UHGV virus genome: UHGV-0346646
Strand: one strand, 5' to 3'
Origin: a virus
Length of the DNA: 11,385 nt
Shown piece by piece: positions 1-9,709 of this stretch. The number at the start of each line of letters is the position of its first letter. Positions within the stretch are counted from its first letter, which is position 1. The translations under genes and the position numbers were made by a program. A model generated the notes under the pieces. The model saw only the letters and a list, made by a program, of their open reading frames with translations. It was not told where the DNA came from and searched no databases.

Positions 1-642
1 CGCTTCCACGGCGTTATTGATTACGCGCTTGCTGAAAGTGGCCCTGTGCTCTGAATAGATCGCCACCATTTCGCGGCTAAGTTCCATTGTGCTGACCGGA
101 CACCATACCCCGCCGCGCCATACGTGAACGATTTCACTTTCAGGATGTACGCAAACGCCATCAAAGCGATCGGCAAGCAGCTGCGCGCGCTCACTGTCCG
201 CCATCTGCGAAAGTTGCGCCTTTTGCTTTACCGGAAGCTCAATGACCAGACCATCAGAAAGATTCTGGCGCTCACGGGCCAGATATTCGCGCCAGTTCTC
301 CACCTTCTGACCGTGCATACCATCAGGGTAAAAATTTGCATCCTGTACGCCTGCCGCCGCCAGCTTCTGGCCAATCGCCTTTATCATTACTGGCGCAAGA
401 TATCCGGCCCTGAATATGCGCACGGATTTTCTGCCTTCCGGCACAATTTGCAGCTTATCCAGTTCTGATAACTGCTGCTCCCCAAGCCACACAGGAGGCT
501 CATTATCTCCGGCCATACGCGCATCATGTTCCTGCCATTGTTTCGCGTGTGCCCAGGCATCACTACCCGCAAAAATAATGACTTCTGTTCCTTTGTGTTT
601 TATGCCGCGTGACTGCTGTTTTACGTTCGGTGCCAGTTTCAT
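1..642 (-). CDS. hypothetical protein, 5-prime part only (gene continues past window start)
   Basis: ATG at 642-640 overlaps the stop of the upstream gene (ATGA). Frame stays open for all 214 codons down to position 1; checked by hand translation (MKLAPNVKQQSRGIKHKGTEVIIFAGSDAWAHAKQW...VWRGGVWCPVSTMELSREMVAIYSEHRATFSKRVINNAVEA). Absent from the ORF track because it has no stop inside the window. Function not recognised. Confidence 0.5.
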   Translation of the reverse strand, partial: MKLAPNVKQQSRGIKHKGTEVIIFAGSDAWAHAKQWQEHDARMAGDNEPPVWLGEQQLSELDKLQIVPEGRKSVRIFRAGYLAPVMIKAIGQKLAAAGVQDANFYPDGMHGQKVENWREYLARERQNLSDGLVIELPVKQKAQLSQMADSERAQLLADRFDGVCVHPESEIVHVWRGGVWCPVSTMELSREMVAIYSEHRATFSKRVINNAVEA

Positions 643-938
643 TTTTTACCCCTGAATCCTTTAATCATGGTTTTCATCTTCTGAATATTGGCGCGTGCTT
701 TCTCCCTGCTGGTGGGCACGTTACGCGGTACGGCCTGCACAAGAGAAAAATCACGGTCGAACTGATAAACAGGCATCACGCAATCATATTCGTAGCCTTC
801 ACGACGGTAGGTTACGCGCCGTTCCTCCACGCCCTTAATCATTACCGTGCCGCCGTACTTATCGCGGTAAATATCACCGCGCATGAATTTAGTGCGAGTT
901 TTGCCACTGGCAGTTAAGCCAGAATATTTAAGTTTCAT
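639..938 (-). CDS. hypothetical protein (99 aa)
   Basis: ATG at 938-936 with GGAGAA upstream; stop overlaps the start of the next minus-strand gene (ATGA at 639-642). Part of a translationally coupled minus-strand operon. No recognisable motif. Confidence 0.5.
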   Translation of the reverse strand: MKLKYSGLTASGKTRTKFMRGDIYRDKYGGTVMIKGVEERRVTYRREGYEYDCVMPVYQFDRDFSLVQAVPRNVPTSREKARANIQKMKTMIKGFRGKK

Positions 939-943
939 TATTT

Positions 944-1177
944 TTATTCTCCGGTGTGGGGCGCTTTATACTGGTCGTGTAATGTCTCTATTTCCTGCAA
1001 CTCATTTATTACAGGCTCAAGAAGCGTTATTAATGCCGTGACAATCCTTGATTTCTGTTTATCACGTTCATTATCTCCAAGCGTTTCAAGACATATGCGC
1101 AATATTTCCAACATATTTTCACTGTGAGAAAGTGCAAGAAATGCGCGGTCTATTGTTTCGTGGTAAATATCACGCAT
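944..1177 (-). CDS. hypothetical protein (77 aa)
   Basis: ATG at 1177-1175 preceded by GGGGA; stop at 944-946 lies 5 nt before the next gene start. Protein-like composition. Confidence 0.5.
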   Translation of the reverse strand: MRDIYHETIDRAFLALSHSENMLEILRICLETLGDNERDKQKSRIVTALITLLEPVINELQEIETLHDQYKAPHTGE

Positions 1178-1178
1178 A

Positions 1179-1613
1179 TTAATCCCCGTCCGTCGTTTTT
1201 CTTAAAATAACCTCTGTCACGAAATCAGCATAATCGGCGGCGATATTCAGTACATCAAGCCCCGTTGATTTATATTCTCTCGTGGAAAGTAAGAAAAAAT
1301 CCGCTCTAATAAGCTCTGGCATTGACGAAAGCGCATCAGCCGCATCATCAGGAACGCCGGAAAATTCCTGTTTCAGGGAATTAAAACGATCATCACGCAT
1401 AACCCCCCCATTTTCACAATCAGCAACAAGAATATTTTTAGCGTCATTCAGCGACCGCGTTGCGATGTATCGGATACATTCCAGGGCGAACTGTGTCCGG
1501 TCTTTCTGTTCTTCTCCCTGCGCAAGCTCTGCCGTGCATTCAATATCAATAAGCGCGTGCATCAGCGTAGTGAGTGCGGCGGCGGCTGCGTCCGGTGTGG
1601 TTTTATTGCACAT
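1179..1613 (-). CDS. hypothetical protein (144 aa from the ATG at 1613; track ORF starts further upstream at 1667)
   Basis: Internal ATG at 1613 is preceded by GGAGGGG at good spacing; the 1667 start has no Shine-Dalgarno. Overlaps the stop of the upstream gene by 11 nt. Function not recognised. Confidence 0.5.
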   Translation of the reverse strand: MCNKTTPDAAAAALTTLMHALIDIECTAELAQGEEQKDRTQFALECIRYIATRSLNDAKNILVADCENGGVMRDDRFNSLKQEFSGVPDDAADALSSMPELIRADFFLLSTREYKSTGLDVLNIAADYADFVTEVILRKTTDGD

Positions 1614-1833
1614 GTACCCCTCCGCATTTTTTTTCGTTAGAAATAAGCGTTCTTCTTTCCTGTTCATCGCTCAGGAATACGCAGACCTCACCGCTAAGGC
1701 GTTTAAGTAAGCCGATGATTGCCCCTGATTCGCTGTCGGTCATCATGCCAGGGTAATCCTCTGCCAGTGCGCAAATAACTTCGATTTGGTGGGCGCGTTC
1801 TGCTGCCTGTTGTAGTGTGATTTCCTGGCTCAT
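1603..1833 (-). CDS. hypothetical protein (76 aa)
   Basis: ATG at 1833-1831 overlaps the stop of the upstream gene (ATGA); GGGGG upstream. Confidence 0.45.
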   Translation of the reverse strand: MSQEITLQQAAERAHQIEVICALAEDYPGMMTDSESGAIIGLLKRLSGEVCVFLSDEQERRTLISNEKKCGGVHVQ

Positions 1834-2030
1834 AAGCCTACCCCCTGACGAATACGGGCAGCAAATACCATCACGCAGCCAGCCGGAGATTGCTGGCGTG
1901 CTTCCTGTTCGCTGGTGGCCTCAATGGTAATCACGCGCGGTTGTGCCGTGCTCAGGGCGATAAAACGCCAGATGTATTTATTCAGGTTGTGCGAGTCCCG
2001 CCCTTGCGGGTGTGTGGTATGATTTAACAT
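1830..2030 (-). CDS. small protein (66 aa), possibly Icd-like; family assignment is tentative
   Basis: ATG at 2030-2028 with GAGG 5-6 nt upstream; first gene of the minus-strand operon, downstream of a strong predicted promoter. It is also the C-terminal 66 codons of the long track ORF 1830..3116, which I consider a read-through artefact. Confidence 0.5.
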   Translation of the reverse strand: MLNHTTHPQGRDSHNLNKYIWRFIALSTAQPRVITIEATSEQEARQQSPAGCVMVFAARIRQGVGL

Positions 2031-2067
2031 AGCTACCTCGATACTTTCGCTATCGTTGGTGGTTAGA

Positions 2068-2100
2068 AGCCCTGCGAGTGGTAACGACACTTGCGGGGCT
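2068..2100. promoter_or_regulatory. 13-bp-arm inverted repeat (AGCCCTGCGAGTG / CACTTGCGGGGCT, 7-nt loop) in the leader of the minus-strand operon
   Basis: Read directly: the arms pair fully if two G-U wobbles are allowed. Sits between the predicted minus-strand promoter and the start at 2030. Confidence 0.4.
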
Positions 2101-2127
2101 TTGCATTTATGCACCTTGATAATCTCA

Positions 2128-2168
2128 AGGTGTAGCCCACTATATGCTTTAGGTGTGGCCCACGTCAA
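2128..2168 (-). promoter_or_regulatory. predicted sigma70 promoter for the minus-strand small-gene operon, overlapped by two direct repeats (AGGTGTAGCCCAC 2128-2140 and AGGTGTGGCCCAC 2151-2163)
   Basis: On the minus strand: -35 TTGACG (2168-2163), 18-bp spacer, -10 TATAGT (2144-2139). The direct repeats overlap the spacer and the start site, as operator sites would. Confidence 0.4.
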
Positions 2169-2170
2169 GG

Positions 2171-2199
2171 GTTTTATTTGTGCTTTTTCTGTGTATACT
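2171..2199 (+). promoter_or_regulatory. possible promoter for the ribbon-helix-helix gene
   Basis: -10 TATACT at 2194-2199; the -35 is weak (GTTTTA region). Divergent from the minus-strand promoter. Confidence 0.3.
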
Positions 2200-2229
2200 G
2201 TCCCCCACCAATCCAACAGAGGAATAGAA

Positions 2230-2409
2230 ATGGCAACGGGTACAACAAACGCAAAATCACAAGCTCTAAAGGCTCGTGTACCACACGAAATAGTAAACGC
2301 CATGGAATCAGTGAAAGAATCAGGCGAAAGCACATCACAATTCATCATTGCGTCAATGCAAGGCGAGATCAAACGCCGCCAGCGCCGCAAGGCCAAAGAG
2401 CAGGAGTAA
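2230..2409 (+). CDS. ribbon-helix-helix (Arc/MetJ/CopG-like) DNA-binding protein, 59 aa
   Basis: ATG at 2230 with AGAGGAA Shine-Dalgarno. Protein MATGTTNAKSQALKARVPHEIVNAMESVKESGESTSQFIIASMQGEIKRRQRRKAKEQE has the strand-helix-helix pattern typical of RHH repressors. Followed by tandem plus-strand terminators. Confidence 0.6.
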   Translation: MATGTTNAKSQALKARVPHEIVNAMESVKESGESTSQFIIASMQGEIKRRQRRKAKEQE

Positions 2410-2466
2410 CCATCACCAGCGCCGTGGTGTGAGTAACTACGGCGCATTGCTATGCAGGACAACACA

Positions 2467-2640
2467 ATGACCGATAAAGAATTGACCAAAACATTATCAC
2501 CGGCACGGAAAAGACGGCGCAGAAAGATAGAGCATGAATCAGAAAGATTCGCGCCATGTGCTTTTGCCCTTGAGCAATTCCTTAAAGAGTACAGGGAAAA
2601 GCGCTCATTGCAGGTATGGCAACGAACTGAACCTGACTGA
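2467..2640 (+). CDS. possible small basic protein (57 aa)
   Basis: ATG at 2467 with a weak AGGA upstream; Lys/Arg-rich (SPARKRRRRK). Lies between the RHH gene and the plus-strand terminators. Weakly supported. Confidence 0.3.
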   Translation: MTDKELTKTLSPARKRRRRKIEHESERFAPCAFALEQFLKEYREKRSLQVWQRTEPD

Positions 2641-2719
2641 TTGCATTGCCCACCAGCCGCAAATGTGGCATTGTTGGCAATGCTCATGCGTTGGGGATAA
2701 CGTGTAGCTTGTGTCGAGG

Positions 2720-2748
2720 GGCCACCGTAGCGGGTGGCCTTTGTTTTG
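2720..2748 (+). terminator. rho-independent terminator
   Basis: Stem GGCCACC / GGTGGCC with loop GTAGCG, followed by TTTGTTTTG. Confidence 0.6.
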
Positions 2749-2843
2749 CCCGTTATTCGGCAATTGTGGCGCTTCTCCACATGGTTGATATAATCCCACT
2801 GCTCAGATTCATTTTTTGCGCAGTAGGTTAATTGTTCACAAAG

Positions 2844-2877
2844 GCGCTCCGGCAACGGGGCGCTTTTTGTTTTTATT
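2844..2877 (+). terminator. rho-independent terminator (second of a tandem pair)
   Basis: Stem GCGCTCCG / CGGGGCGC (one G-U) with loop GCAA, followed by TTTTTGTTTTTATT. Confidence 0.6.
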
Positions 2878-2882
2878 AGTTT

Positions 2883-3116
2883 GTAGAAACCTGACTCAGA
2901 GATAATGCTCATATTCTGATTGCCGTCAGGGGTGTAAGTTAAATTTACTCCCTTTTTATCATCAAACATCTGCAACGCTCTGGCGTTAACAATATTGGTT
3001 TCACTCCCGCCAGTAAGGCCGGAAATAACCGGAATAATTTCGGCAAAATTTTGCAGATTCTGTTTTTCAGGACGAACGAAGCCCCGCCCTTGTTCGGGAG
3101 AATATCCAGTATTCAT
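2883..3116 (-). CDS. BRO-N / antirepressor-like N-terminal domain ORF, probably truncated or degenerate
   Basis: First ~78 codons of track ORF 1830..3116 (…DDKKGVNLTYTPDGNQNMSIISESGFYKLI) resemble the C-terminal half of a BRO-N domain from memory. The similarity ends where the plus-strand terminator at 2844-2877 is encoded; the remaining ~350 codons have Cys/Trp/Arg-rich antisense-like composition. True end unknown. Confidence 0.3.
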
Positions 3117-3168
3117 GGTTAGATCTCTGTATTAGTGGATGGGTGGCGGCTGTGTGCCGCCAGCCTGA

Positions 3169-3357
3169 TTAGTGAACTGCCTCGCAGCTGTCCTTCCATG
3201 CCAGAACTTCGGATAAAGACCAGCCAACGGAACGACCGCCCAGCTTACGCCGTGATGGGAATTGTCCGGCTTTTTCCAGGTGGTACCGACATGAGCGGCT
3301 CAGGCCTGTAAGTTGCTGACATTCTTTTTCACGTATAAAGCGATCTGTGCTTAACAC
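3169..3357 (-). CDS. alpA: AlpA-family (prophage CP4-57-type) transcriptional regulator / excisionase-like HTH protein
   Basis: GTG start at 3357-3355 preceded by GGGGGA. Protein (…QQLTGLSRSCRYHLEKAGQFPSRRKLGGRSVGWSLSEVLAWK) matches the AlpA pattern TG.SR.T.Y…G.FP…KLG.RSVGW..SE…W. Sits next to the integrase, as in P4-like islands. Confidence 0.85.
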   Translation of the reverse strand: MLSTDRFIREKECQQLTGLSRSCRYHLEKAGQFPSRRKLGGRSVGWSLSEVLAWKDSCEAVH

Positions 3358-3640
3358 AATTCCCCCTTTGTTGTTTCTTAAAGAGTCATTGGGTGGATTA
3401 TTGGGTTGGGTTGTGTCGGATTGTGTCAGGGTGTTTGTGGAATGGCAAACACTGGCGGCGGTCGTTTTACAGAAGCAGGGGAAATGAGAATAAAAACTCT
3501 TTTAATTCATTATGATGCAAAGGCATAAAATTTTACTTTTACGCCTTTTTTACATATTTTTAAGAGTGATTCGCCAGTGTATAAAAAAACAGTACACCTA
3601 TAAAAATCAAATGGTTATTACGATGGCTGATTTTTAACCC

Positions 3641-3700
3641 GTTGTTCCATTTTGTTCCTTGTTGTTCGTCGTTGTGTCTCGTTGTTTCACGTTGTCCGCA
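3641..3700. repeat. cluster of short direct repeats (CGTTGTT/CGTTGTC units) between the integrase and alpA
   Basis: Read directly: gttgttccattttgttccttgttgttcgtcgttgtgtctcgttgtttcacgttgtcc. Related TTGTGTC units occur at 3400-3440. Confidence 0.5.
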
Positions 3701-3722
3701 TCCTGAAAAATCGCAAAAAAAA

Positions 3723-4970
3723 TTATATTTCTCTGGCTATTGGCAATGTGGTTACGTTTTCATGTGTTCCCGCCAGTATCCCTAACCGCTCCGTCCACAT
3801 ATCCAGCGCGTCACGTTTCGCATCCAGATAACGGGAATGGTTATAGACTCGTTGCATCCCTGGCATCTGATGACCTGTAAGCTGCTCCACGACGTGAGGA
3901 TCCACGCCTAAATCGTTCAGCATCGTTGTAAAGGTGCGCCGGATGTCATGCAGTGACCAGTGAGGGTGTTTTAGCCTCCTGTGCGCTAATCTGCCGTACT
4001 GCGACACGCTTGTTTCCTGTTTCACTTCCCCCAGCAATAAGCCCGTGTGCCTGTTCTGCTCCACCAGCTGCGTGACGAACGGCAGTATTGCTTCCGGTAT
4101 GGGCCGGAATATTGCCACCTTCGTTTTGCTGTGTTCTTTCGGCACGGTCCAGAGCATTTCGGTAAAATCCCACTCGCTGATCTCCGATAACCTCAGTTCT
4201 ACCGTCCGGCATCCGAAAACAATCAGGAGGCGGATTAGTGCGACGTAGTAAGGGGAAAATATTTTTTTGTCCAGTGCCTGCAATAATTCGCCAAGTTCTT
4301 TGGTGCTTAAGACGCGCTCGCTTATATCCGGTTTTTTCCCAACGTCCGCCACACTCATATCATCAAGAACGTTGCTGATTGCATAGCGCCGCCTCCGGCA
4401 GAACTTAAGCGCCTGTTTGCACGTCTGTAGCAAGAATCCGGCAGTAACAGGCGTTCGCTTTGCCACCTGGTCAAAACAGGCCAGCCAGTGCCGTAGCTCG
4501 CATTTATCCAGCGGCATAGCACCAATGTGCTGTATTACGTGATTATTAAGGCGCTTTTTCAGGGCGGCATAATCCACGCGGTTTTCCTTTGCGTACGACT
4601 CAAGCCAGTAGGTGAGCGCATCGCCAACCGTTACCGGCTTTAACGCTTCCTGTACGGTGTAATTCATTTCATGACGTGGATTTTTCCCCTCTGCCAGCCA
4701 TGCGCGACACTGGGCGGCTTTTTCCCTGGCTGATTTCAGGCTCAGATCAGGATAATTTCCCAGCTTAATGCGTTCCGGTGGTGCCCCCCTTCCCGTTCCG
4801 GCCCTGTAAGTGAAATACCAGGTTAAAAGGCCACTGGTTGAATGCCTGACGCTCAGGTTTCCACCGTCATTAAGAAAGGCTGTTTTTTGGGCGGGTGTGC
4901 CGTTGATTTTCCTCAGCTGTGTATCGCTCAGTTTGTTAAGTGCTCTGCTCATAATTTTGATTCCGGTCAT
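3723..4970 (-). CDS. int: P4-type tyrosine integrase (site-specific recombinase, phage integrase family)
   Basis: Conserved C-terminal catalytic region HDIRRTF…GHQMPGMQRVYNHSRYLD (H-x-x-R and catalytic Tyr context) and an N-terminal arm-binding-type region like P4/CP4-57 integrases. Start is ambiguous: GTG 4973, ATG 4970 or ATG 4952 (MSRALNKLSDTQ…). Confidence 0.9.
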   Translation of the reverse strand: MTGIKIMSRALNKLSDTQLRKINGTPAQKTAFLNDGGNLSVRHSTSGLLTWYFTYRAGTGRGAPPERIKLGNYPDLSLKSAREKAAQCRAWLAEGKNPRHEMNYTVQEALKPVTVGDALTYWLESYAKENRVDYAALKKRLNNHVIQHIGAMPLDKCELRHWLACFDQVAKRTPVTAGFLLQTCKQALKFCRRRRYAISNVLDDMSVADVGKKPDISERVLSTKELGELLQALDKKIFSPYYVALIRLLIVFGCRTVELRLSEISEWDFTEMLWTVPKEHSKTKVAIFRPIPEAILPFVTQLVEQNRHTGLLLGEVKQETSVSQYGRLAHRRLKHPHWSLHDIRRTFTTMLNDLGVDPHVVEQLTGHQMPGMQRVYNHSRYLDAKRDALDMWTERLGILAGTHENVTTLPIAREI

Positions 4971-4972
4971 CA

Positions 4973-5009
4973 CAATTAACTACACCATTAACTACACCGA
5001 TCGTTGCAC
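4973..5009. repeat. direct repeat copy 1 (contains tandem AACTACACC units), immediately upstream of and overlapping the integrase start
   Basis: caattaactacaccattaactacaccgatcgttgcac. A near-identical copy lies 234 bp away at 5207-5242; the flanks share a degenerate ACAACGTG-GAACAA motif. Confidence 0.7.
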
Positions 5010-5206
5010 AAAGGGCTACAACGTGAAACAAGCTGGAACAAGGAAAATCACAAATCTGTTTATAATCAAAAACATAATGAACAACCTGAAACATTATGAA
5101 ACGGCAAAAAACACTAATTGATAAAATATGTCCTTTTATCACTACATCAAGGCAAGCCATTGATTTAATTAAATGATTTGCACTGCAAAAAGTGCTAAAA
5201 ATCGCA

Positions 5207-5242
5207 AATTGACTACACCATTAACTACACCGATCGTTGCAC
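5207..5242. repeat. direct repeat copy 2 of the integrase-upstream repeat
   Basis: aattgactacaccattaactacaccgatcgttgcac; one mismatch against copy 1. Confidence 0.7.
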
Positions 5243-5451
5243 TGTATGAAACAACGTGGAACAAATAGACACAAGAAATATACAGGCGGGTCATCTTTCC
5301 AGGGGGAAGCGCGCCAATTCATGAGGGGCGTTAATGTCGATATGGGGATCCCCATAACGGGGCTACCTGGCTTTTTTCCGGTTAAATGTCAATCAGGCTG
5401 GTGGGTTTTACATACCCTTGATCACCGTAATGATGATCCAGATGTGCGCCT

Positions 5452-5507
5452 TTCCACCAATGGTGGAAAAGCCCACAGCAGGCCGCCCAGCCTCCCCCAA
5501 TGGGGGA
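5452..5507. repeat. pair of related GC-rich palindromes (TTCCACCAATGGTGGAA at 5452-5468; TCCCCCAATGGGGGA at 5493-5507)
   Basis: Read directly; centres 41 bp apart. A third palindrome, ATGGGGATCCCCAT, is at 5342-5355. Candidate protein-binding or recombination core sites in the non-coding junction. Confidence 0.5.
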
Positions 5508-5515
5508 TTGTGGAA

Positions 5516-5684
5516 GAATCAACGGGTTAGGCCTTAATGGGCTGCGTGGTAATTATCAGCATCCAGAATATGACGGGTTATGTTTCCGACCTCTTCAATT
5601 TGAGGTTCCCGAAAATATCAACGGGTTAGGCTGGTTTCCCCGATGTTCGCCGCTGGCGAATTTCGAAAATATCAACCAGTTACC
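5516..5684. repeat. three direct repeats of an ATCAAC(G/C)(G/A)GTTA(G/C)(G/C) unit (5516-5533, 5608-5632, 5662-5684)
   Basis: gaatcaacgggttaggcc; cccgaaaatatcaacgggttaggct; ttcgaaaatatcaaccagttacc. The last copy overlaps the stop of the 93-aa gene. Confidence 0.5.
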
Positions 5685-5961
5685 GCCGCAACCGCTCCGG
5701 CTTCTTCCAGTGGTACGTAATTTTCTCCGTTTCCCGATACAGTGCCACGCGGCGATTGTAGGCCAGCATTTCAAGAACGCGGATCCGTATGTTGCGCATA
5801 TCCACATCATTAAGCTGGATACCATTACGGCGAATCACCTCAGCAACCACACGAACATAATTTTCGGCGGTCACGCTGTCCGGCTGCGTGGTCTGTTCGT
5901 CGGCCTGCTGGCTGATTCCGGCAACGCGGCGGATTAATCGCAGTATTTCGGCTTCTGTCAT
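5680..5961 (-). CDS. hypothetical protein (93 aa), last gene of the packaging-side module
   Basis: ATG at 5961-5959 with GGGGG 5 nt upstream; the track ORF 5680..6159 extends upstream through the cos copy and is not credible there. Protein MTEAEILRLIRRVAGISQQ… has no recognised motif. Confidence 0.5.
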   Translation of the reverse strand: MTEAEILRLIRRVAGISQQADEQTTQPDSVTAENYVRVVAEVIRRNGIQLNDVDMRNIRIRVLEMLAYNRRVALYRETEKITYHWKKPERLRR

Positions 5962-5994
5962 TGTGCCCCCATCGTTCTGATAGTCTGGTGTCGT

Positions 5995-6066
5995 CGGGTC
6001 CTTCCTGGAATTATGGCCCGTTACGGGGCGGCGACCTCGCGCGTTTTCACTATTTATGAAAATTTT
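5995..6066 (+). other. lambda-type cos site, copy 1 (cosN with cohesive-end sequence GGGCGGCGACCT at 6026-6037)
   Basis: gttacgGGGCGGCGACCTcgcgcgttttcactatttatgaaaattttt is near-identical to the lambda genome junction (…GTTACG / GGGCGGCGACCTCGCGGGTTTTCGCTATTTATGAAAATTTTCCGG) as I remember it. Confidence 0.75.
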
Positions 6067-6075
6067 TCGGGATCC

Positions 6076-6172
6076 ATGTCCGGTTTCTCTGCAAGTTAAC
6101 CATATGAAAAATATAAAAACATGCTTTCCATGAACCGGACATGCGCAAAAAACAGACACTAAAACCGGACAT
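6076..6172 (+). promoter_or_regulatory. cosB-like repeats: ATGTCCGGTT (6076-6085, inverted), AT-rich spacer, AACCGGACAT (6134-6143) and AACCGGACAT (6163-6172)
   Basis: One inverted plus two direct 10-bp sites with an A/T-rich stretch between the inverted pair, paralleling lambda cosB (R3 - IHF site I1 - R2 - R1). Lies directly after cosN copy 1. Confidence 0.5.
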
Positions 6173-6240
6173 CGAACCAGTTAACCGAAAGTGTGCACAA
6201 ATCACATGCATTGCTGCGAGTGATTAACAAGTTATCGGCT

Positions 6241-6675
6241 TTACTGTTCTGTATCGGCTGATTGCTCCATGCTGGCACGGCGAACGCTTACGGCATGACG
6301 CCACCCAGCCAGAAAGCCAGCCATTTTATTTCGTGCCTTGCTCACATCTTCCGGTGAATAGCCGTAAATCTGCAAACCTTCATCAAATCGATGTTCTGTT
6401 TCTTCACTGGAGTACTCGTCACGCTCAGATGAAAGCAGCCTGGCAAACATAATTTTTTCCAGCGCACTGGTTTCTACGTGATATCTGATGGCCTCAAGAC
6501 GGCTTTTACCTGAAGACCAAAGCAATGTATGCCCGATGTGATAACCGCCAGACTTTCCGCGATCCGCATTAAGATACGGCATCCCCTGTTTGGTCCATGC
6601 GCGAATAGTGGTTCTGTTAACCTTGAAATGTTCAGCTATTTCCTGCTGACTTACAAAACAAGCTTTATCAATCAT
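6241..6675 (-). CDS. lambda Nu1-like small terminase-type protein (N-terminal winged-HTH DNA-binding domain), 144 aa
   Basis: ATG at 6675. N-terminus VSQQEIAEHFKVNRTTIRAWTKQGMPYLNADRGKSGGYHIGHTLLW aligns by eye with lambda Nu1 KKQLADIFGASIRTIQNWQEQGMPVLRGGGKGNEVLYDSAAVIKW. Shorter than Nu1 (181 aa). Lies about 90 bp downstream (minus strand) of cosN copy 2. Confidence 0.7.
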   Translation of the reverse strand: MIDKACFVSQQEIAEHFKVNRTTIRAWTKQGMPYLNADRGKSGGYHIGHTLLWSSGKSRLEAIRYHVETSALEKIMFARLLSSERDEYSSEETEHRFDEGLQIYGYSPEDVSKARNKMAGFLAGWRHAVSVRRASMEQSADTEQ

Positions 6676-6744
6676 AATGTTACCTTAACTGCATGGTTAA
6701 ATATTAATCAAGTGGTGGTGGTGTCACCTTCACGGAAAAACGTC

Positions 6745-6807
6745 ATAAATAGCGAAAACCCGCGAGGTCGCCGCCCCGTAACGGGCCATAATTCCAGGAA
6801 GGACCCG
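6745..6807 (-). other. lambda-type cos site, copy 2, inverted relative to copy 1 (cohesive-end sequence at 6765-6776 read on the minus strand)
   Basis: Reverse complement reads cgggtccttcctggaattatggcccgttacgGGGCGGCGACCTcgcgggttttcgctatttatg; 47 bp are identical to copy 1 and about 70 bp match with two mismatches. Confidence 0.75.
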
Positions 6808-6808
6808 T

Positions 6809-6830
6809 AAAAAAGCCGGATTTCTCCGGC
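6809..6830 (-). terminator. rho-independent terminator ending the capsid operon
   Basis: Minus-strand hairpin GCCGGA-GAAA-TCCGGC followed by TTTTTT, just after the stop at 6837. Confidence 0.65.
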
Positions 6831-6836
6831 CTTGTC

Positions 6837-7250
6837 TCAGATGGTTTTCAGTATGCGATCGATGTCGCCGTCATCGCCCTGGTTTCTGCCATCGTATGCC
6901 ATGCCAGCTGATACGGCTTGCGGGCTGTGCATGTCCATAAAGTTTTCAAAGGCTGCGGTAAGCTCTGGTGCAACCTTTGGGCGCTCCTGCTCTATGGTCA
7001 TGTTCAGGATTTCACGAGCATTATCGACGCTAATACATGGCACGTTTGCCATTGCACGTAACAGCGGCTGATAGTCTTTATGCTCATGAAGCGCCATAAT
7101 CGCATCAGCGCGCGGCTTGTCCTGCTCTTCCAGTTTGTTTAGTTGATATACGGCCTCATAGGTTGATAAACCTCTGTCAGCCATTGCCCGCGCTTCGGCT
7201 TTAAATTTACTCGCCAGCGGTAGCGTCATGATGCTTTCATTCGTTGCCAT
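6837..7250 (-). CDS. hypothetical protein (137 aa), last gene of the capsid operon; possible scaffold-like or capsid accessory protein (speculative)
   Basis: ATG at 7250 with GGGGG 5 nt upstream; predicted helix-rich and acidic. Function not recognised. Confidence 0.55.
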   Translation of the reverse strand: MATNESIMTLPLASKFKAEARAMADRGLSTYEAVYQLNKLEEQDKPRADAIMALHEHKDYQPLLRAMANVPCISVDNAREILNMTIEQERPKVAPELTAAFENFMDMHSPQAVSAGMAYDGRNQGDDGDIDRILKTI

Positions 7251-7262
7251 CGTTCCCCCTGC

Positions 7263-7598
7263 TTATCGGGCCAGCGGCTGAACGGATACGCCGGAACCCG
7301 CAAAGGCGGCGCATTTTTTCGCATCGGTGTCGACGCTCTCAGGCCAGTTAACGGCGGCAATATTGAATATCCCCGTCTTGTAACACTGTGCTGATTTCTG
7401 CTTTGACGTGTCCACAGGGTACGAGGTCAGATAAACAGCCTTGCCAGATTCCTGACCATCCCACGGCTTAAACTCGCCATTGTCCGCCAGCATCAGCGGG
7501 GTAAATTCCTGAATAACGCCAGCATCAGCGGCAAAATGTACCAGCGTCGTGGCGACCTGCTGACTGCCTGCAAATAACTCAATGTATGGAGTGTCCAT
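7263..7598 (-). CDS. head decoration protein, lambda gpD family
   Basis: TPLMLADNGEFKPWDG…YKTGIFNIAAVNWPES…AKKCAAFAGSGVSV aligns by eye with lambda gpD TPLMLDTSSRKLVAWDG…YKSGTFRYEDVLWPEA…TKKRTAFAGTAISI. Similar length (111 vs 110 aa). GGGGG Shine-Dalgarno. Confidence 0.8.
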   Translation of the reverse strand: MDTPYIELFAGSQQVATTLVHFAADAGVIQEFTPLMLADNGEFKPWDGQESGKAVYLTSYPVDTSKQKSAQCYKTGIFNIAAVNWPESVDTDAKKCAAFAGSGVSVQPLAR

Positions 7599-7609
7599 AG
7601 AATCCCCCG

Positions 7610-8665
7610 TTAACCAATTTTGACGGTAACAAATTTGCGAATATCTGCCGGAACCGGCTGCGGTGCGCTGTGCGTCTGCACGTACTCAATCGCCGGATCG
7701 CCGTCCTCAATCCAGTTTTTCGGGTAAAACATGTTTTGCGTTGCGCCCGTTCTTACTGCGTCCTGATCCATAATCGCACCATAGGCCACCAGCCCTTTAT
7801 TGTTGGTGTTGCCCAGGACAAGCAAATCAGGCTCAAGGAAATATTTTTCTGTGCCGTCGCTGTCAGTGTATTTGCCGGAATAGACGATAAGGGCAATATC
7901 GCCCAGATAGCCTTTAAAGCTCACCACTTCGCCCAGGTTTTTACAGGCCAGCTCTGCGGCGGACTCTGAACCACGGGAAAGATCGTACAGCTCACGGAAT
8001 TTTTTAAAGCTGCGTAACGTTCGCCATACCTCAGCGCCCATAATCATGACGTTTGCGGGGCAACCAGCCTGATCGGCGTATAGTTCGATATCATAGATTG
8101 GATCGTGGGTTTCTTTGTCCTGCTCTGACCATTTTTTCCCGTCGGCCTGCTCTATGATGTTTTTTTCCGGTATCTTCCAGTCGATTTCATAGCGCTCTAT
8201 GCCTTCGCCTTCAATGATGTTTTTTCCGGTCGTTACCGCATTTACCGCCAGCCATTCCACGCGCGCTTTTATGGCGTTTATCTGGCGGCGCATATTGCCA
8301 GTAATCAGGCGCATACGGCGATAGGTAGGGTCGTTAAGCTGTGCCGGATCTTCTCCAGCCATGCGCATGATGGTTTTCGTTGGATCGATTTCGTGCTTTG
8401 GCTTCATGTAGCCAGGTTTAATCGTGCTGGTTTCGTACCCTTTATCGCGCTGAACCTGGCTACCCACCATAGGCGAACAAAACGCCGACATGGTGACTTC
8501 TTCAATGTCCAGGGTATCCAGCATGATGTTTTGCGTGCTGAATGTCGCCACGTTCGGGAAAAACAGCGTGGTAAACAGCGGACTGAATTTAAATTCCGCA
8601 ATATCCCCGCGATTCAGGTACGCAAAAAGCTGGTTAGTGTTAAGTGCCATTGCTTTTACTGTCAT
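7610..8665 (-). CDS. major capsid protein, lambda gpE family
   Basis: 351 aa with FKFSPLFTTLFF, PGYMKPKHE, DPTYRRMR, SFKGYLGDIALIVYSG, YPKNW and GDPAIE motifs matching lambda gpE (FKFDPLFLRLFF, PGYVKPKHE, DPAYRRRR, SYKGMYGDVAIVVYSG, YPKNW, GDPARE) at the same relative positions. Confidence 0.9.
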   Translation of the reverse strand: MTVKAMALNTNQLFAYLNRGDIAEFKFSPLFTTLFFPNVATFSTQNIMLDTLDIEEVTMSAFCSPMVGSQVQRDKGYETSTIKPGYMKPKHEIDPTKTIMRMAGEDPAQLNDPTYRRMRLITGNMRRQINAIKARVEWLAVNAVTTGKNIIEGEGIERYEIDWKIPEKNIIEQADGKKWSEQDKETHDPIYDIELYADQAGCPANVMIMGAEVWRTLRSFKKFRELYDLSRGSESAAELACKNLGEVVSFKGYLGDIALIVYSGKYTDSDGTEKYFLEPDLLVLGNTNNKGLVAYGAIMDQDAVRTGATQNMFYPKNWIEDGDPAIEYVQTHSAPQPVPADIRKFVTVKIG

Positions 8666-8871
8666 TATTCACCCCCGTGAACCTGATTCATACCCAGCGC
8701 CGCGCGTAAATAGGCGCGTACCTGCCAGCCTGTTGACGGCTCAACCATCGCCAGCGGATCAAGTCCTGCCGCAATGCCTGCTTTTACGTTCTGCTGGTGG
8801 CGTTCCTTGAGCGCCTTCACGATGTCGGGGCTTATGTACACCGAAACACCGCCTTTTTTCTCTTCAGCCAT
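8665..8871 (-). CDS. hypothetical protein (68 aa), first gene of the capsid operon
   Basis: ATG at 8871; stop overlaps the capsid gene start by 1 nt (TAATG). Shine-Dalgarno spacing is long (AGAGGA ~12 nt upstream), so the start is uncertain. Confidence 0.45.
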   Translation of the reverse strand: MAEEKKGGVSVYISPDIVKALKERHQQNVKAGIAAGLDPLAMVEPSTGWQVRAYLRAALGMNQVHGGE

Positions 8872-8904
8872 AGTAAGAAATTCCTCTTTGACTTAAAAAA
8901 TCAT

Positions 8905-8953
8905 AACTGGATGTTCATCCAGCTCTGATTATAATCATGATTGCATTTTGTGC
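8905..8953 (-). promoter_or_regulatory. predicted capsid-operon promoter with overlapping palindromes
   Basis: Minus strand: -35 TTGCAC (8953-8948), 16-bp spacer, -10 TATAAT (8931-8926) inside the palindrome GATTATAATC. The perfect inverted repeat CTGGATG-TT-CATCCAG (8905-8920) lies at about +1 to +16. Confidence 0.4.
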
Positions 8954-9036
8954 AATGATGTTGAGTTGCGTTGCAAATTATGAAATGATTATCCCGATCA
9001 TGTGTGTCAGTGCACCAAAAAGCCTCATATGCAAAA

Positions 9037-9073
9037 GCCCGATAAGCCACCTCTGACCTTATCGGGCTTTTTT
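9037..9073. terminator. orphan terminator-like hairpin in the 415-bp intergenic region
   Basis: GCCCGATAAG - 11-nt loop - CTTATCGGGC followed by TTTTTT on the plus strand (AAAA precedes it). No obvious plus-strand gene upstream. Confidence 0.35.
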
Positions 9074-9248
9074 ATCTGCCTGCAAAGATGTCGAACGAAA
9101 ATTAACCACAACCATCATCTTTTTTGCATCAAAACAATTAAAAACAATAAATTACGCTCATGATGATGATGACGATAAAATCACAAAAATGCGCTTTTTT
9201 CCGCGCCTCCCGCCCCGTGTTCAGGCCCACCCCGCCAGGAGGACCCGT

Positions 9249-9271
9249 AAAAAAGCCGGATTGCTCCGGCT
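9249..9271 (-). terminator. rho-independent terminator after the SSB gene
   Basis: Minus-strand hairpin AGCCGGA-GCAA-TCCGGCT followed by TTTTTT. Sequence is near-identical to the terminator module at 6791-6840. Confidence 0.6.
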
Positions 9272-9286
9272 TCTGTCTCTCGTCGC

Positions 9287-9709
9287 TTAAAACGGTATGT
9301 TATCCCCGTACGGATCATCATTCCCCGCCTGTTGTTTTGCCCTGTTCAGCGCGTCAGTAGCCTGGCCCTGTTGACCTTTTTTGCCGCCCAGTCGCGCCGT
9401 TCGCGCACTGATTACACTGTCTGCGATAACCTGCCAGCCCTGCCGCGTTTCTCCGTTCTGCCCAGTCCACTGGCTGATCTGCATGTTACCCGCCACGCTC
9501 AGGAGTTCACCCTTGCGGTGCCTTTCCAGTGCTTCGGCCTGTCTGCCAAATGCCAGGACGGATAACCACATCGTCGCCGTTCCGTCATCTGCCTGGCTGC
9601 ACGGAAGGGGGACCGCCATACGCGCCAGCGTCATCGGTGTGCCCTTGCTGGTCTGTTTTACCTGCGGGTCGTCCACCAGCCGCCCGTAAGCTGCTATCTG
9701 TGCTGTCAT
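9287..9709 (-). CDS. ssb: single-stranded DNA-binding protein (SSB, OB-fold)
   Basis: Aligns by eye with E. coli SSB: G.L..DP.V, W..V..FG..AE, RKG, W.G..G..R. C-terminal acidic tail ends NDDPYGDNIPF (compare SSB …DFDDDIPF). GAGGTGG Shine-Dalgarno. Confidence 0.75.
   Translation of the reverse strand: MTAQIAAYGRLVDDPQVKQTSKGTPMTLARMAVPLPCSQADDGTATMWLSVLAFGRQAEALERHRKGELLSVAGNMQISQWTGQNGETRQGWQVIADSVISARTARLGGKKGQQGQATDALNRAKQQAGNDDPYGDNIPF

What the first reader, a model, noticed from the sequence alone, without database searches (positions are those of the whole stretch)
5340..5684. Non-coding junction rich in GC palindromes and direct repeats
Two related palindromes (TTCCACCAATGGTGGAA and TCCCCCAATGGGGGA) lie 41 bp apart, with a third (ATGGGGATCCCCAT) nearby. 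Downstream are three direct repeats of an ATCAACGGGTTAGG-type unit, preceded in two cases by CGAAAATATCAAC. No convincing ORF covers them. This is the far end of the packaging-side element and may hold its att site, a recombinase core, or cosQ-like termination elements.
Basis: seen in the sequence. Interest (0 to 1): 0.5.

Follow-up and report, generated by a model that had tools for sequence, protein, structure and literature searches.

The report
Satellite end array of IHF/Roi-operator sites
The palindromes and repeats are real and non-coding: they form a tandem array of host IHF binding-site matches, each paired with a small palindrome, copied from the spot inside the lambdoid-phage gene roi where Roi and IHF reportedly bind, and they lie at the end of a phage satellite (an EcCICFT073-type PICI), so they are neither its att site nor its cos site.

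Summary
All three palindromes and the three direct repeats are at the stated coordinates and exceed chance, and no conserved ORF covers them.

The window is one full circle of an EcCICFT073-type phage-inducible chromosomal island (PICI). The att core is AAATATGTCC at 5124-5133. The two lambda-type cos sites lie at 5996-6037 (+) and 6806-6765 (-). The finding therefore holds neither att nor cosQ/cosN.

The direct repeats are three same-orientation matches to the IHF consensus WATCAANNNNTTR. Each sits 10 nt downstream of a 13-15 nt dyad. The same module (dyad, 10-nt spacer, IHF site) lies inside codons ~43-58 of lambdoid-phage roi genes. There the dyad type tracks the putative recognition helix, and the module holds roi's only IHF consensus.

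PICI ends carry 2-5 such modules with dyads identical to several roi alleles. They sit directly 3' of a satellite-specific 93-aa gene, across different integrases, capsid alleles and packaging types.

Best reading (confidence 0.45): a cis-acting platform for host IHF and helper-phage Roi proteins, acting as decoy or sensor. Binding is inferred, not shown. Helpers without roi still mobilise the island. The region also holds one of ten Chi sites in the window (0.33 expected).

The parts
3723..4973 (-). Tyrosine integrase of the island (P4-like, with an arm-binding domain)
   Evidence: Pfam Arm-DNA-bind_3 and Phage_integrase. Matches the CFT073 island integrase end.
4974..5048 (+). attP left arm: direct repeat TTAACTACACCATTAACTACACCG plus GAAACA/GGAACA motifs (probable integrase arm-type sites)
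   Evidence: the repeat finder D2 and D1. The two copies flank the core symmetrically. The function is inferred.
5124..5133 (.). attP crossover core AAATATGTCC. Its TAA overlaps the phoQ stop codon in the integrated state.
   Evidence: The block is shared by both CFT073 junctions. The empty phoQ|core|roxA site is contiguous in 4823 of 5426 genomes. The window is a circular permutation of the island.
5153..5165 (-). IHF consensus site inside attP, 20 nt from the core
   Evidence: Match to WATCAANNNNTTR.
5207..5281 (+). attP right arm: second copy of the arm repeat
   Evidence: the repeat finder D2, 79% identity over 75 nt with 34 of 35 identical in the core part.
5338..5359 (.). 22-nt palindrome CGATATGGGGATCCCCATAACG with a central GATC.
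   Evidence: the repeat finder I19. Conserved in many PICI ends, sometimes in 2-3 copies and often flanked by inverted Chi octamers. Function unknown.
5397..5404 (+). Chi octamer GCTGGTGG. By the known polarity of Chi recognition it would be read by RecBCD entering at a cos-cut end and moving towards lower coordinates.
   Evidence: 10 Chi in the window against 0.33 expected. Relatives carry three tandem Chi in this end region. The orientation argument rests on established knowledge of Chi.
5407..5434 (+). Weak sigma-70-like promoter match TTTACA-16-AATGAT, pointing into the array
   Evidence: Consensus scan: 1 site found against 2.6 expected. Kept in L004 but not clearly in L003. Not evidence of function.
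5451..5469 (.). Orphan dyad P1, TTTCCACCAATGGTGGAAA, with no IHF site after it. Its half-site CCACCA equals the right half of the HK022-type roi dyad CCCCCAATGGTGG.
5494..5529 (+). Module 1: dyad CCCCCAATGGGGG (5494-5506), spacer ATTGTGGAAG, IHF consensus AATCAACGGGTTA (5517-5529)
   Evidence: About 35 nt are near-identical to a coding segment of roi.
5593..5628 (+). Module 2: imperfect dyad CTTCAATTTGAGG (5593-5605), spacer TTCCCGAAAA, IHF consensus TATCAACGGGTTA (5616-5628)
   Evidence: Relatives have the perfect dyads CCTCAATTTGAGG or CCTCAAATTGAGG.
5646..5682 (+). Module 3: dyad TTCGCCGCTGGCGAA (5646-5660), spacer TTTCGAAAA, IHF consensus TATCAACCAGTTA (5670-5682). The last three bases of the IHF site form the stop codon of the 93-aa gene on the minus strand.
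   Evidence: By my own reading of those sequences, 27 of 32 nt match the roi allele carrying GCGCCAATGGCGA-ATTTCGAAAT-AATCAAC.
5680..5961 (-). 93-aa gene (p93, phrog_1561, function unknown). It is the last gene before the array and has been found only in satellites.
   Evidence: PHROG E=4e-54. No tblastn hit in 50,697 phage records. 817 homologue clusters, and every named one among the 120 listed is E. coli. The array lies directly 3' of it in diverse satellites.
5996..6037 (+). cos2: cosQ-like GGGTCCT (5996-6002) and cosN GGGCGGCGACCT (6026-6037)
   Evidence: Exact 17-mer match. Two cos sites are published for EcCICFT073.
6241..6675 (-). rpp (redirecting phage packaging protein)
   Evidence: PDB 6HLK RppC, E=5e-31. 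Weak Nu1/TerS HTH matches.
6765..6806 (-). cos1 (the functional cos): cosN at 6776-6765 and cosQ-like GGGTCCT at 6806-6800. The rpp start codon falls at bp 102 from the cohesive end.
   Evidence: The bp-102 spacing equals the one given for PICI-C in PMC9026076.

Best explanation
The finding is the non-coding right-end spacer of an EcCICFT073-type PICI. It lies between the attP right arm and the stop codon of the last gene.

The spacer has a modular build. A conserved block at about 5282-5440 holds a 22-nt GATC-centred palindrome and a Chi site. After it come an orphan dyad and three tandem modules. Each module is a 13-15 nt dyad, a 10-nt A/T-rich spacer with an invariant GAA, and an IHF consensus site. 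All three IHF sites face the same way.

These modules are copies of the element embedded in codons ~43-58 of lambdoid-phage roi genes. roi encodes a DNA-binding protein with an Rha domain followed by an ANT domain. Roi is reported to bind within its own gene next to an IHF site.

Most likely mechanism. Host IHF bends the DNA at each site (inferred from the sequence). When a roi-carrying lambdoid phage is active, Roi dimers occupy the adjacent dyads (inferred by homology to the roi element). Different modules would match different Roi specificity types. The array would then act as a multivalent landing pad or decoy for a helper-phage regulator, and its dose would rise as the satellite replicates.

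Shown: the anatomy, the homology to roi, the dyad covariation, the enrichment of IHF consensus sites, and the position relative to att, cos and the genes. Inferred: IHF binding, Roi binding and every downstream consequence, whether titration of Roi, sensing of the helper, or control of transcription that runs from the late operon across attP into int in the excised circle.
For: Context:
- The window is a circular permutation of the CFT073 island.
- The att core and the empty site are mapped.
- rpp and both cos sites are identified. Published work on them is in PMC6092414 and PMC6739421.

IHF consensus sites:
- Five matches in the window against 0.56 expected. Three lie in the array in one orientation and one lies beside the att core.
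- The pattern is specific. The 47-kb phage HK629 has only four matches: three in attP and one in roi.
- In a sample collected through the p93 protein, and so not through the repeats, 45 distinct downstream regions hold 63 same-orientation matches against about 0.6 expected. Of these regions 33 have at least one match and 12 have at least three.

Homology to roi:
- The unit CCTCAAATTGAGG-ATTGTGGAAG-AATCAATGGGTTAGGC of PICI arrays is identical to an internal coding segment of roi.
- A codon alignment shows that roi alleles carry different dyads but keep dyad, spacer and IHF site.
- This IHF site is the only IHF consensus in roi.

Dyads:
- In 33 distinct units, 88% of dyad positions are symmetric against 71% in shuffles. 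29 cells are double changes against 10.7. The covariation score is 0.415 against 0.153, and 0 of 500 shuffles reach it. Slid registers collapse.
- Across 30 roi alleles each dyad type goes with one putative recognition-helix sequence, on otherwise mosaic N-terminal and downstream backgrounds.
- PICI units carry the same dyads as roi alleles. CCTCAAATTGAGG, CCTGCATTGCAGG and CCGCCAATGGCTG are exact, and CCCCCAATGGGGG is near.

Position and coding status:
- Arrays sit directly 3' of p93 in satellites whose integrases are 24-77% identical and whose capsids are 44-97% identical to the window's. A terS-type island without p93 has one too.
- The region is not coding. Unit spacings in relatives are 54, 55, 99, 116, 133, 152 and 256 nt, so the reading frame is not kept.

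From memory, paper not held: Clerget & Boccard 1996, J Bacteriol 178:4077, report that Roi binds a site within its own gene close to an IHF site, and that IHF stabilises that binding.
Against: - No binding data exist for this DNA.
- The key statement about Roi binding inside roi comes from my memory of an abstract, and the exact Roi site is not known to me.
- The link between dyad and recognition helix could reflect physical linkage alone, because they lie about 60 nt apart.
- Helpers without roi mobilise the island. Lambda does (that lambda lacks roi is my own knowledge). So does the lambdoid prophage next to the island, which has the identical cosN and is probably the published 'phage 4'. 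It has neither roi nor the module. Roi is therefore not needed for induction or transfer.
- In 8 genomes that carry both a roi prophage and a PICI, the dyad types matched only sometimes.
- The units turn over quickly. Module 1 is missing and module 3 is replaced in the O157 relative. That fits either an arms race or weak constraint.
- Units for the alignment were picked with an IHF-like pattern, so invariance of ATCA/TTA there is by construction. The dyad test and the p93-anchored count do not have this bias.
Confidence: 0.45

Rival explanations
1. An IHF-plus-palindrome element at the end of an operon that works without Roi, in the way RIB/RIP (BIME-1) elements do. IHF-bent DNA and stem-loops at the 3' end of the capsid/rpp/p93 operon would shape local DNA architecture, stabilise the 3' end of the mRNA, or limit read-through across attP into int (in the circle) or into phoQ (in the chromosome). 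roi would merely share the same cassette.
For: - The array lies directly 3' of the last gene, and its final IHF site overlaps the stop codon.
- IHF consensus sites are strongly enriched.
- Dyads keep their symmetry through compensatory changes, as a stem-loop would.
- The minus-strand RNA folds somewhat better than shuffles, z = -2.3.
- The island is mobilised by helpers without roi.
Against: - The dyads are not REP sequences, and nothing in the region matches any Rfam family.
- No convincing intrinsic terminator is present. The scan gives one weak site at 5694-5677 and finds no more sites than shuffles do.
- Stems are only 5-6 bp, some around a single central base, which suits a duplex dyad better than a hairpin.
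- G-U pairs are rare: 6 of 175 paired cells.
- This reading does not explain why PICI dyads equal the allele-specific dyads of roi.
Confidence: 0.22
2. Neutral debris. Short pieces of helper-phage roi genes would have been captured by illegitimate or homologous recombination between satellites and lambdoid phages, then amplified by slippage or unequal crossing-over, with no function of their own.
For: - Units read in the roi frame as roi-like peptides, such as DCGRINGLG and PENINGLG.
- The 54-nt period fits tandem duplication.
- Composition varies widely between close relatives.
- Satellites and lambdoid phages share cells and cos sequences.
Against: - Only the 50-55 nt dyad-plus-IHF segment of a 720-nt gene is ever found, and it recurs from several roi alleles.
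- The non-coding copies keep dyad symmetry and the IHF consensus although reading frames are lost.
- The array holds a fixed position and orientation across satellite lineages with different integrases, capsids and packaging modes.
Confidence: 0.15
3. An extended attP arm. The IHF sites and dyads would be accessory sites of the intasome for the island's integrase and its directionality factor.
For: - The array lies next to attP.
- IHF sites are typical of attP. The three attP sites of HK629 are the only IHF consensus matches in that phage apart from the one in roi.
- One IHF site does sit 20 nt from the core.
Against: - The modules start about 320 nt and end about 560 nt from the core, beyond the arm repeats at about +75 to +157.
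- The same modules occur with integrases only 24-45% identical and at other attachment sites, for example next to clpS.
- Module number and spacing vary freely between relatives.
Confidence: 0.08
4. Packaging signals: a cosQ-like termination element or a third cos.
For: Block 5273-5380 aligns weakly with cos1 and cos2. It has GGGTCAT where they have GGGTCCT, and ACGGGGCTACCT where they have ACGGGGCGGCGACCT. The alignment score was reached by 0 of 500 shuffles against cos1 and 8 of 500 against cos2.
Against: - The 12-nt cohesive-end sequence is not intact here.
- Both real cos sites have their own cosQ within 24 nt of cosN.
- Deleting cos1 and cos2 abolishes transfer.
- The modules also occur in terS-type islands.
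- The modules show no similarity to cos.
Confidence: 0.04
5. A protein-coding gene on the plus strand (5237..5530 or 5500..5937), possibly a decayed roi-like gene.
For: ORFs of 97 and 145 aa exist, and the three units lie in one frame in this window, with spacings of 99 and 54 nt.
Against: - No family match.
- Stops in all frames and indels that break the frame in the O157 relative.
- Unit spacings are not multiples of 3 in relatives.
- The 145-aa ORF is mostly antisense to the conserved 93-aa gene.
Confidence: 0.02

Closest known systems
Internal Roi/IHF site of the roi gene of HK022-like lambdoid phages (Clerget & Boccard 1996, cited from memory)
   Same: The architecture is the same: 13-nt dyad, 10-nt spacer (TTTTCGAAAA or ATTGTGGAAG), then WATCAANNNNTTR. 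Sequences are identical or nearly so over 35-55 nt. Several allele-specific dyads are shared.
   Different: In phages there is one copy, inside a coding sequence. In the satellite there are 2-5 tandem non-coding copies of mixed allele types, next to attP and 3' of the late operon, and the island has no roi gene. Binding has not been tested.
RIB/RIP elements (BIME-1: an IHF site between REP palindromes) of E. coli (Boccard & Prentki 1993; Oppenheim et al. 1993; from memory)
   Same: Reiterated units that combine palindromes with an IHF consensus and lie at the 3' ends of transcription units.
   Different: The palindromes are not REP sequences. The units occur on mobile satellites rather than dispersed in the chromosome. 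They are homologous to a phage coding segment.
Helper-activator sites in the late promoters of satellite P4 (P2 Ogr/P4 Delta sites; from memory)
   Same: Concept only: a satellite carries cis sites for a DNA-binding regulator of its helper.
   Different: Those sites lie upstream of promoters and have proven activation. Here no regulated promoter is identified, and the sites lie downstream of the operon.
IHF sites of lambda attP (H1, H2, H') and of cosB (I1)
   Same: Same consensus, and the same host bending protein is expected. One site of this kind lies beside the att core of this island.
   Different: The array is 320-560 nt from the att core and 340-1100 nt from the cos sites. It is reiterated and varies in number.

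Membership tests
IHF binding site | Match to the core consensus WATCAANNNNTTR | tested here: met
   Matches at 5517-5529, 5616-5628 and 5670-5682, all on the + strand. Enrichment is about 100-fold in p93-anchored relatives.
IHF binding site | A/T-rich tract just upstream of the core, as in strong sites such as H' | tested here: inconclusive
   The spacers are TTCCCGAAAA and TTTCGAAAA in modules 2 and 3, and ATTGTGGAAG in module 1. They are A/T-rich but are not an A-tract.
IHF binding site | Actual binding and bending by IHF | not testable with these tools
   Needs a gel shift, a footprint or ChIP.
roi internal operator module | 13-nt dyad, 10-nt spacer, then an IHF consensus in fixed register | tested here: met
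   Alignment A1 of 33 units from roi genes and PICI ends. Dyad symmetry is 88% against 71% in shuffles.
roi internal operator module | Sequence identity to known roi alleles | tested here: met
   Window module 1 matches about 35 nt of roi. Module 3 matches 27 of 32 nt (my own count).
roi internal operator module | Lies within an intact roi reading frame | tested here: not met
   The island has no roi (tblastn, and the annotation). The region is non-coding.
roi internal operator module | Bound by Roi protein | not testable with these tools
   The only support is a literature statement recalled from memory, and that paper is not held.
RIB/RIP (BIME-1) | IHF site flanked by REP palindromes of the GCCGGATG... 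type | tested here: not met
   The dyads are CCNNCAATGNNGG-type, not REP. There is no Rfam match. The REP consensus is from memory.
RIB/RIP (BIME-1) | Location at the 3' end of a transcription unit | tested here: met
   The array lies directly after the p93 stop codon.
att site (attP core) | Identity block present at both prophage junctions and once at the empty site | tested here: not met
   That block is AAATATGTCC at 5124-5133, not 5340-5684.
lambda-type cos (cosQ/cosN) | The 12-nt cohesive-end sequence GGGCGGCGACCT with GGGTCCT about 24 nt upstream | tested here: not met
   Present only at 6026-6037 (+) and 6776-6765 (-). The region has only a degenerate look-alike.
Chi site | Exact octamer 5'-GCTGGTGG-3' | tested here: met
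   5397-5404 (+), one of 10 in the window.
Intrinsic terminator | G+C-rich stem-loop followed by a T run | tested here: not met
   The scan finds only one weak site at 5694-5677 (-), and no more sites than shuffles give.
Known RNA families (Rfam 15) | Covariance-model match | tested here: not met
   No match inside 5282-5700 even at E up to 10.

The most novel reading that the evidence does not exclude
E. coli PICIs carry, next to their att site, a tandem 'library' of the autoregulatory operators of several allelic types of the helper-phage regulator Roi, each paired with an IHF site. This DNA-level mimicry would let a replicating satellite titrate or sense Roi from many different lambdoid phages. 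It would be a helper-satellite interaction mediated by cis-DNA rather than by a satellite protein. It might feed into the still unknown helper signal for Gram-negative PICIs, or into interference with phages that carry roi.
Probability: 0.3. Interest if true: 0.8.

Novelty: new variant of a known kind. Interest (0 to 1): 0.55.

Why it matters
How Gram-negative PICIs perceive and manipulate their helpers is only partly known. Rpp explains packaging, but the papers read here leave the helper cue that switches on alpA unidentified.

A conserved, reiterated array at the island end that copies the Roi/IHF element of lambdoid phages would be a new kind of satellite-helper interface. It uses no satellite protein, only binding sites matched to several helper alleles.

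It would also give a handle on Roi and Rha proteins. They are widespread in temperate phages, including Stx phages, yet their function is poorly understood.

The work also removes a wrong lead. The att core and both cos sites are now placed precisely, outside the finding.

The Chi excess of the island (10 sites in 11.4 kb) against none in about 50 kb of the neighbouring helper-like prophage suggests a separate, testable strategy against RecBCD.

I found no paper in the held library that mentions PICIs together with Roi, or this array.

Tried and rejected
- Rfam scan of 4900-6300 at E up to 10: nothing in the region.
- Promoter and terminator scan: no more sites than in shuffles.
- RNA folding of both strands: z = -2.3 for the minus strand and -1.4 for the plus strand, not decisive.
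- Pfam and PHROG scans of all local ORFs: no match for those inside the region.
- Integron attC idea, prompted by GTTAGGC fitting GTTRRRY. Rejected by reading the sequence: all copies are direct and no inverse core is paired with them.
- A coding 18-aa repeat, prompted by the 54-nt period: rejected because spacings in relatives break the frame.
- Two scans of one genome per species (genome contigs): the first gave zero hits and the second only chance hits in unrelated taxa. No spread beyond E. coli was shown, but the sample holds only one genome per species.
- Reading the original Roi paper: not held. Full-text searches for its key statement found nothing.
- Structure prediction of p93, to see whether it could be the array's binding protein. 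The model had low confidence (pLDDT 69) and three helices, with no PDB sequence relative, so I ran no fold search.
- Matching roi dyad type to PICI dyad type within 8 genomes: inconclusive.
- Looking for further copies of the roi dyad in phage HK629. There is only the one in roi, so no second operator supports the idea.
- A third cos in block 5273-5380: borderline similarity only.
Full report
**What the window is.** The region and its flanks match E. coli CFT073 at 98-100% identity. Window 5124-9073 follows directly on the phoQ stop codon. Window 1-5133 is the integrase end of the same island, next to roxA. The end of the window joins its start without a gap. The window is therefore one full circle, circularly permuted, of an EcCICFT073-type phage-inducible chromosomal island (PICI). 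This satellite was studied by Fillol-Salom et al. (PMC6092414, PMC6739421).

- The 144-aa gene at 6241..6675 (-) is an Rpp (PDB 6HLK RppC, E=5e-31).
- Two exact lambda-type cosN sequences flank it, at 6026-6037 (+) and 6776-6765 (-). Each has GGGTCCT about 24 nt upstream.
- The rpp start codon is bp 102 from the minus-strand cohesive end. That is the spacing given for the PICI cos-rpp layout in PMC9026076. The minus-strand site is therefore the functional cos1, and packaging from it runs towards lower coordinates.

**Observation check.**
- The pattern CCNNCAATGNNGG occurs twice against 0.14 expected.
- The repeats match WATCAANNNNTTR. The window has five matches against 0.56 expected, three of them here in one orientation.
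- No real ORF covers them. There are no family hits and no RefSeq gene. In the O157:H7 relative there are stops in all six frames and frame-breaking indels.

**Where att and cos really are.** Both CFT073 junctions share AAATATGTCC. The int side reads GATAAAATATGTCC|atacttc, and the phoQ side reads gaaTAAATATGTCC|ttttatc.
- A reconstructed phoQ|core|roxA junction is contiguous at 100% identity in strains such as Nissle 1917. It is covered at 80% or more in a single place in 4823 of 5426 complete E. coli genomes.
- The attP core is therefore 5124-5133. It is flanked symmetrically by 75-nt direct repeats at 4974-5048 and 5207-5281, which are probable arm sites. An IHF consensus lies at 5153-5165.
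- The finding starts about 200 nt to the right of the core and ends 310 nt to the left of the nearest cosQ.
- Deleting both cos sites abolishes transfer.
- Only a borderline, gapped resemblance to cos exists at 5273-5380.

**What the repeats are.** Each direct repeat is an IHF consensus match, at 5517, 5616 and 5670. Each is preceded by a 10-nt spacer with an invariant GAA, and before that by a dyad: CCCCCAATGGGGG, CTTCAATTTGAGG or TTCGCCGCTGGCGAA. A fourth dyad, TTTCCACCAATGGTGGAAA, stands alone. The last IHF site overlaps the stop codon of the 93-aa gene p93 (5680..5961, minus strand; phrog_1561).

**The link to roi.** A scan of viral contigs for the repeat returned PICI ends. It also returned many 40-60 kb lambdoid contigs in which the same 45-50 nt lie inside a gene. 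That gene is roi, which has an Rha N-domain and an ANT/KilAC C-domain and sits between ninF and Q.
- Codon alignment of roi alleles shows that the segment falls in hypervariable codons ~43-58.
- The alleles encode different peptides (PQIEDCGRINGLG, PPMVVFEKINNLG, APMANFEIINNLG, PALQVFEKINNLG). At the DNA level they all keep a 13-nt dyad, a 10-nt spacer and an IHF consensus.
- This is the only IHF consensus in roi.
- In the whole 47-kb HK629 genome, the only IHF consensus matches besides this one are the three in attP.
- From memory (the paper is not held), Clerget & Boccard 1996 showed that Roi binds a site within its own gene close to an IHF site, and that IHF stabilises that binding.

**Evidence that the dyad is a functional element.** The alignment holds 33 distinct units, 11 from roi genes and 22 from PICI ends.
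- Six symmetric position pairs are complementary in 88% of cells, against 71% after shuffling.
- There are 29 double changes against 10.7, and the covariation score is 0.415 against 0.153 (0 of 500 shuffles).
- Slid registers fall to 30-56%. The dyad was not used to select the units.
- Among 30 distinct roi N-termini each dyad type goes with one putative recognition-helix sequence, on mosaic N-terminal and downstream backgrounds:

| Dyad | Helix sequence |
|---|---|
| CCTCAAATTGAGG | KRHDNVKRTIETLAK |
| CCCCCAATGGTGG | RHDKVKQSIERLA |
| CCTGCATTGCAGG | SRPDNVKISIERLA |
| GCGCCAATGGCGA | SQHKDVKRSIERLM |
| CCGCCAATGGCTG | SQHSDVKRSIERMV |

This is the pattern expected for operator and repressor specificity pairs. 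Tight physical linkage (about 60 nt) could also produce it.

**The satellite arrays.** PICI ends carry 2-5 modules, often at an exact 54-nt period. Their dyads are identical to several roi types within one array. In L121, for example, they are CCTCAAATTGAGG, CCCCCAATGGGGG and CCTGCATTGCAGG.
- In the window, P1 and module 1 are the two symmetrised halves of the HK022-type dyad. Module 2 is a CCTCAAATTGAGG derivative. Module 3 matches the GCGCCAATGGCGA allele at 27 of 32 nt.
- Arrays always lie directly 3' of p93, in satellites whose integrases are 24-77% identical and whose capsids are 44-97% identical to the window's. One also occurs in a terS-type island next to clpS that lacks p93.
- p93 itself has no hit in 50,697 phage records.
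- In a sample collected through p93, independently of the repeats, 45 distinct downstream regions hold 63 same-orientation strict IHF matches against about 0.6 expected.
- Homologues of the region occur in 1137 of 5426 complete E. coli genomes. None appeared in one-genome-per-species scans of other taxa.

**Interpretation.** The most economical reading is a tandem array of roi-operator-like modules. It would bind host IHF and, when a roi-carrying lambdoid phage is active, Roi proteins of several specificity types. What the satellite gains is inferred only.
- It might titrate a helper regulator, since the phage has a single such site and a replicating PICI would offer many.
- It might sense the helper.
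- It might control transcription that, in the excised circle, runs from the late operon through attP into int, which lies on the same strand.

**Limits on the interpretation.** The island is mobilised by lambda and by the CFT073 prophage next to it. That prophage has the identical cosN and is probably the published 'phage 4'. It has no roi and no module. Roi therefore cannot be required for induction or transfer. Co-residence of matching types in 8 genomes was inconclusive.

**Rivals.** Four alternatives remain.
- A Roi-independent IHF-plus-palindrome element at the operon end, like RIB/RIP.
- Neutral roi debris amplified by slippage.
- An extended attP arm.
- Packaging signals or a coding ORF, which I consider essentially excluded.

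**Other content of the region.** Block 5282-5440 is 97% identical in the O157 relative.
- It holds a 22-nt GATC-centred palindrome that recurs in many PICI ends.
- It holds a Chi octamer at 5397-5404. The window has ten Chi sites against 0.33 expected.
- Relatives have three tandem Chi in this end block.
- The neighbouring lambdoid prophage (about 50 kb, Gam-encoding) and HK629 have none.

**Novelty.** Full-text searches found no paper that links PICIs with Roi or describes this array. I file it as a new variant of a known kind, a reiterated IHF/operator element. The functional claim awaits binding and deletion experiments.

Noticed in passing
window 708, 1911, 5397, 8793, 11234 (+) and 2650, 4061, 7786, 9673, 10973 (-): Ten Chi octamers (GCTGGTGG) in 11.4 kb against 0.33 expected by shuffling. 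Related PICIs have up to 16 in 13 kb, and often three tandem Chi about 115 nt apart in the end block. The adjacent lambdoid prophage of CFT073, which encodes Gam, has none in about 50 kb, and phage HK629 has none. This may be a strategy of the Gam-less satellite against RecBCD. A correctly oriented Chi lies 1.0-1.4 kb inside each cos-cut end.
   Followed up: partly
window 4974-5281: Anatomy of attP. The core AAATATGTCC (5124-5133) overlaps the phoQ stop codon. There are symmetric 75-nt arm repeats, reiterated GAAACA/GGAACA motifs, an IHF consensus at 5153-5165 (-) and an A/T palindrome at 5156-5181. A PICI next to clpS has the same TTAACTACACC arm motif but different inner repeats (CGAACAA).
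   Followed up: partly
window 5338-5359; L004, L012, L023, L029, L067, L220: The 22-nt palindrome CGATATGGGGATCCCCATATCG, with a central GATC (Dam site), is conserved at many PICI ends. It sometimes occurs in 2-3 copies and is often bracketed by inverted GCTGGTGG...CCACCAGC. No function is known.
   Followed up: partly
window 5273-5380: Gapped resemblance to the island's own cos sites (GGGTCAT...CCCATAACGGGGCTACCT against GGGTCCT...CCCGTTACGGGGCGGCGACCT). It is possibly a decayed third cos interrupted by the 22-nt palindrome. Significance is borderline.
   Followed up: partly
roi genes in L130, L132, L123, L092 and about 100 IMG/VR loci: Inside roi, the hypervariable codons ~43-47 double as a 13-nt dyad whose sequence tracks the putative recognition helix about 20 codons upstream. 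The gene seems to encode part of its own operator in a segment whose peptide sequence is free to vary. The Acinetobacter phage phiAC-1 homologue keeps CCCCCAATGGGG but has no IHF site.
   Followed up: partly
window 5680-5961 (-): The 93-aa protein p93 (phrog_1561) appears specific to satellites. It has no hit in the phage collection. Every named protein among the 120 best of its 817 homologue clusters is from E. coli. It is always the last gene before the array. The AlphaFold model has low confidence and shows three helices. Function unknown.
   Followed up: partly
window 5996-6037 (+) and 6765-6806 (-): The two cos sites are inverted relative to each other and bracket rpp. cos2 keeps lambda-like sequence for about 45 nt beyond cosN, while cos1 diverges after about 30 nt. 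This fits the published result that only the cosB of cos1 is recognised by Rpp-TerS.
   Followed up: partly
window 9073-9381 against L001 12951-13345: A stretch of about 300 nt between the capsid module and the replication module does not align with CFT073, and the following 2 kb is only 91% identical. This is a mosaic joint within the island.
   Followed up: no
window 3605-3617 (+): A further IHF consensus match (AATCAAATGGTTA) lies just downstream of the int stop codon, between int and the alpA-side genes.
   Followed up: no
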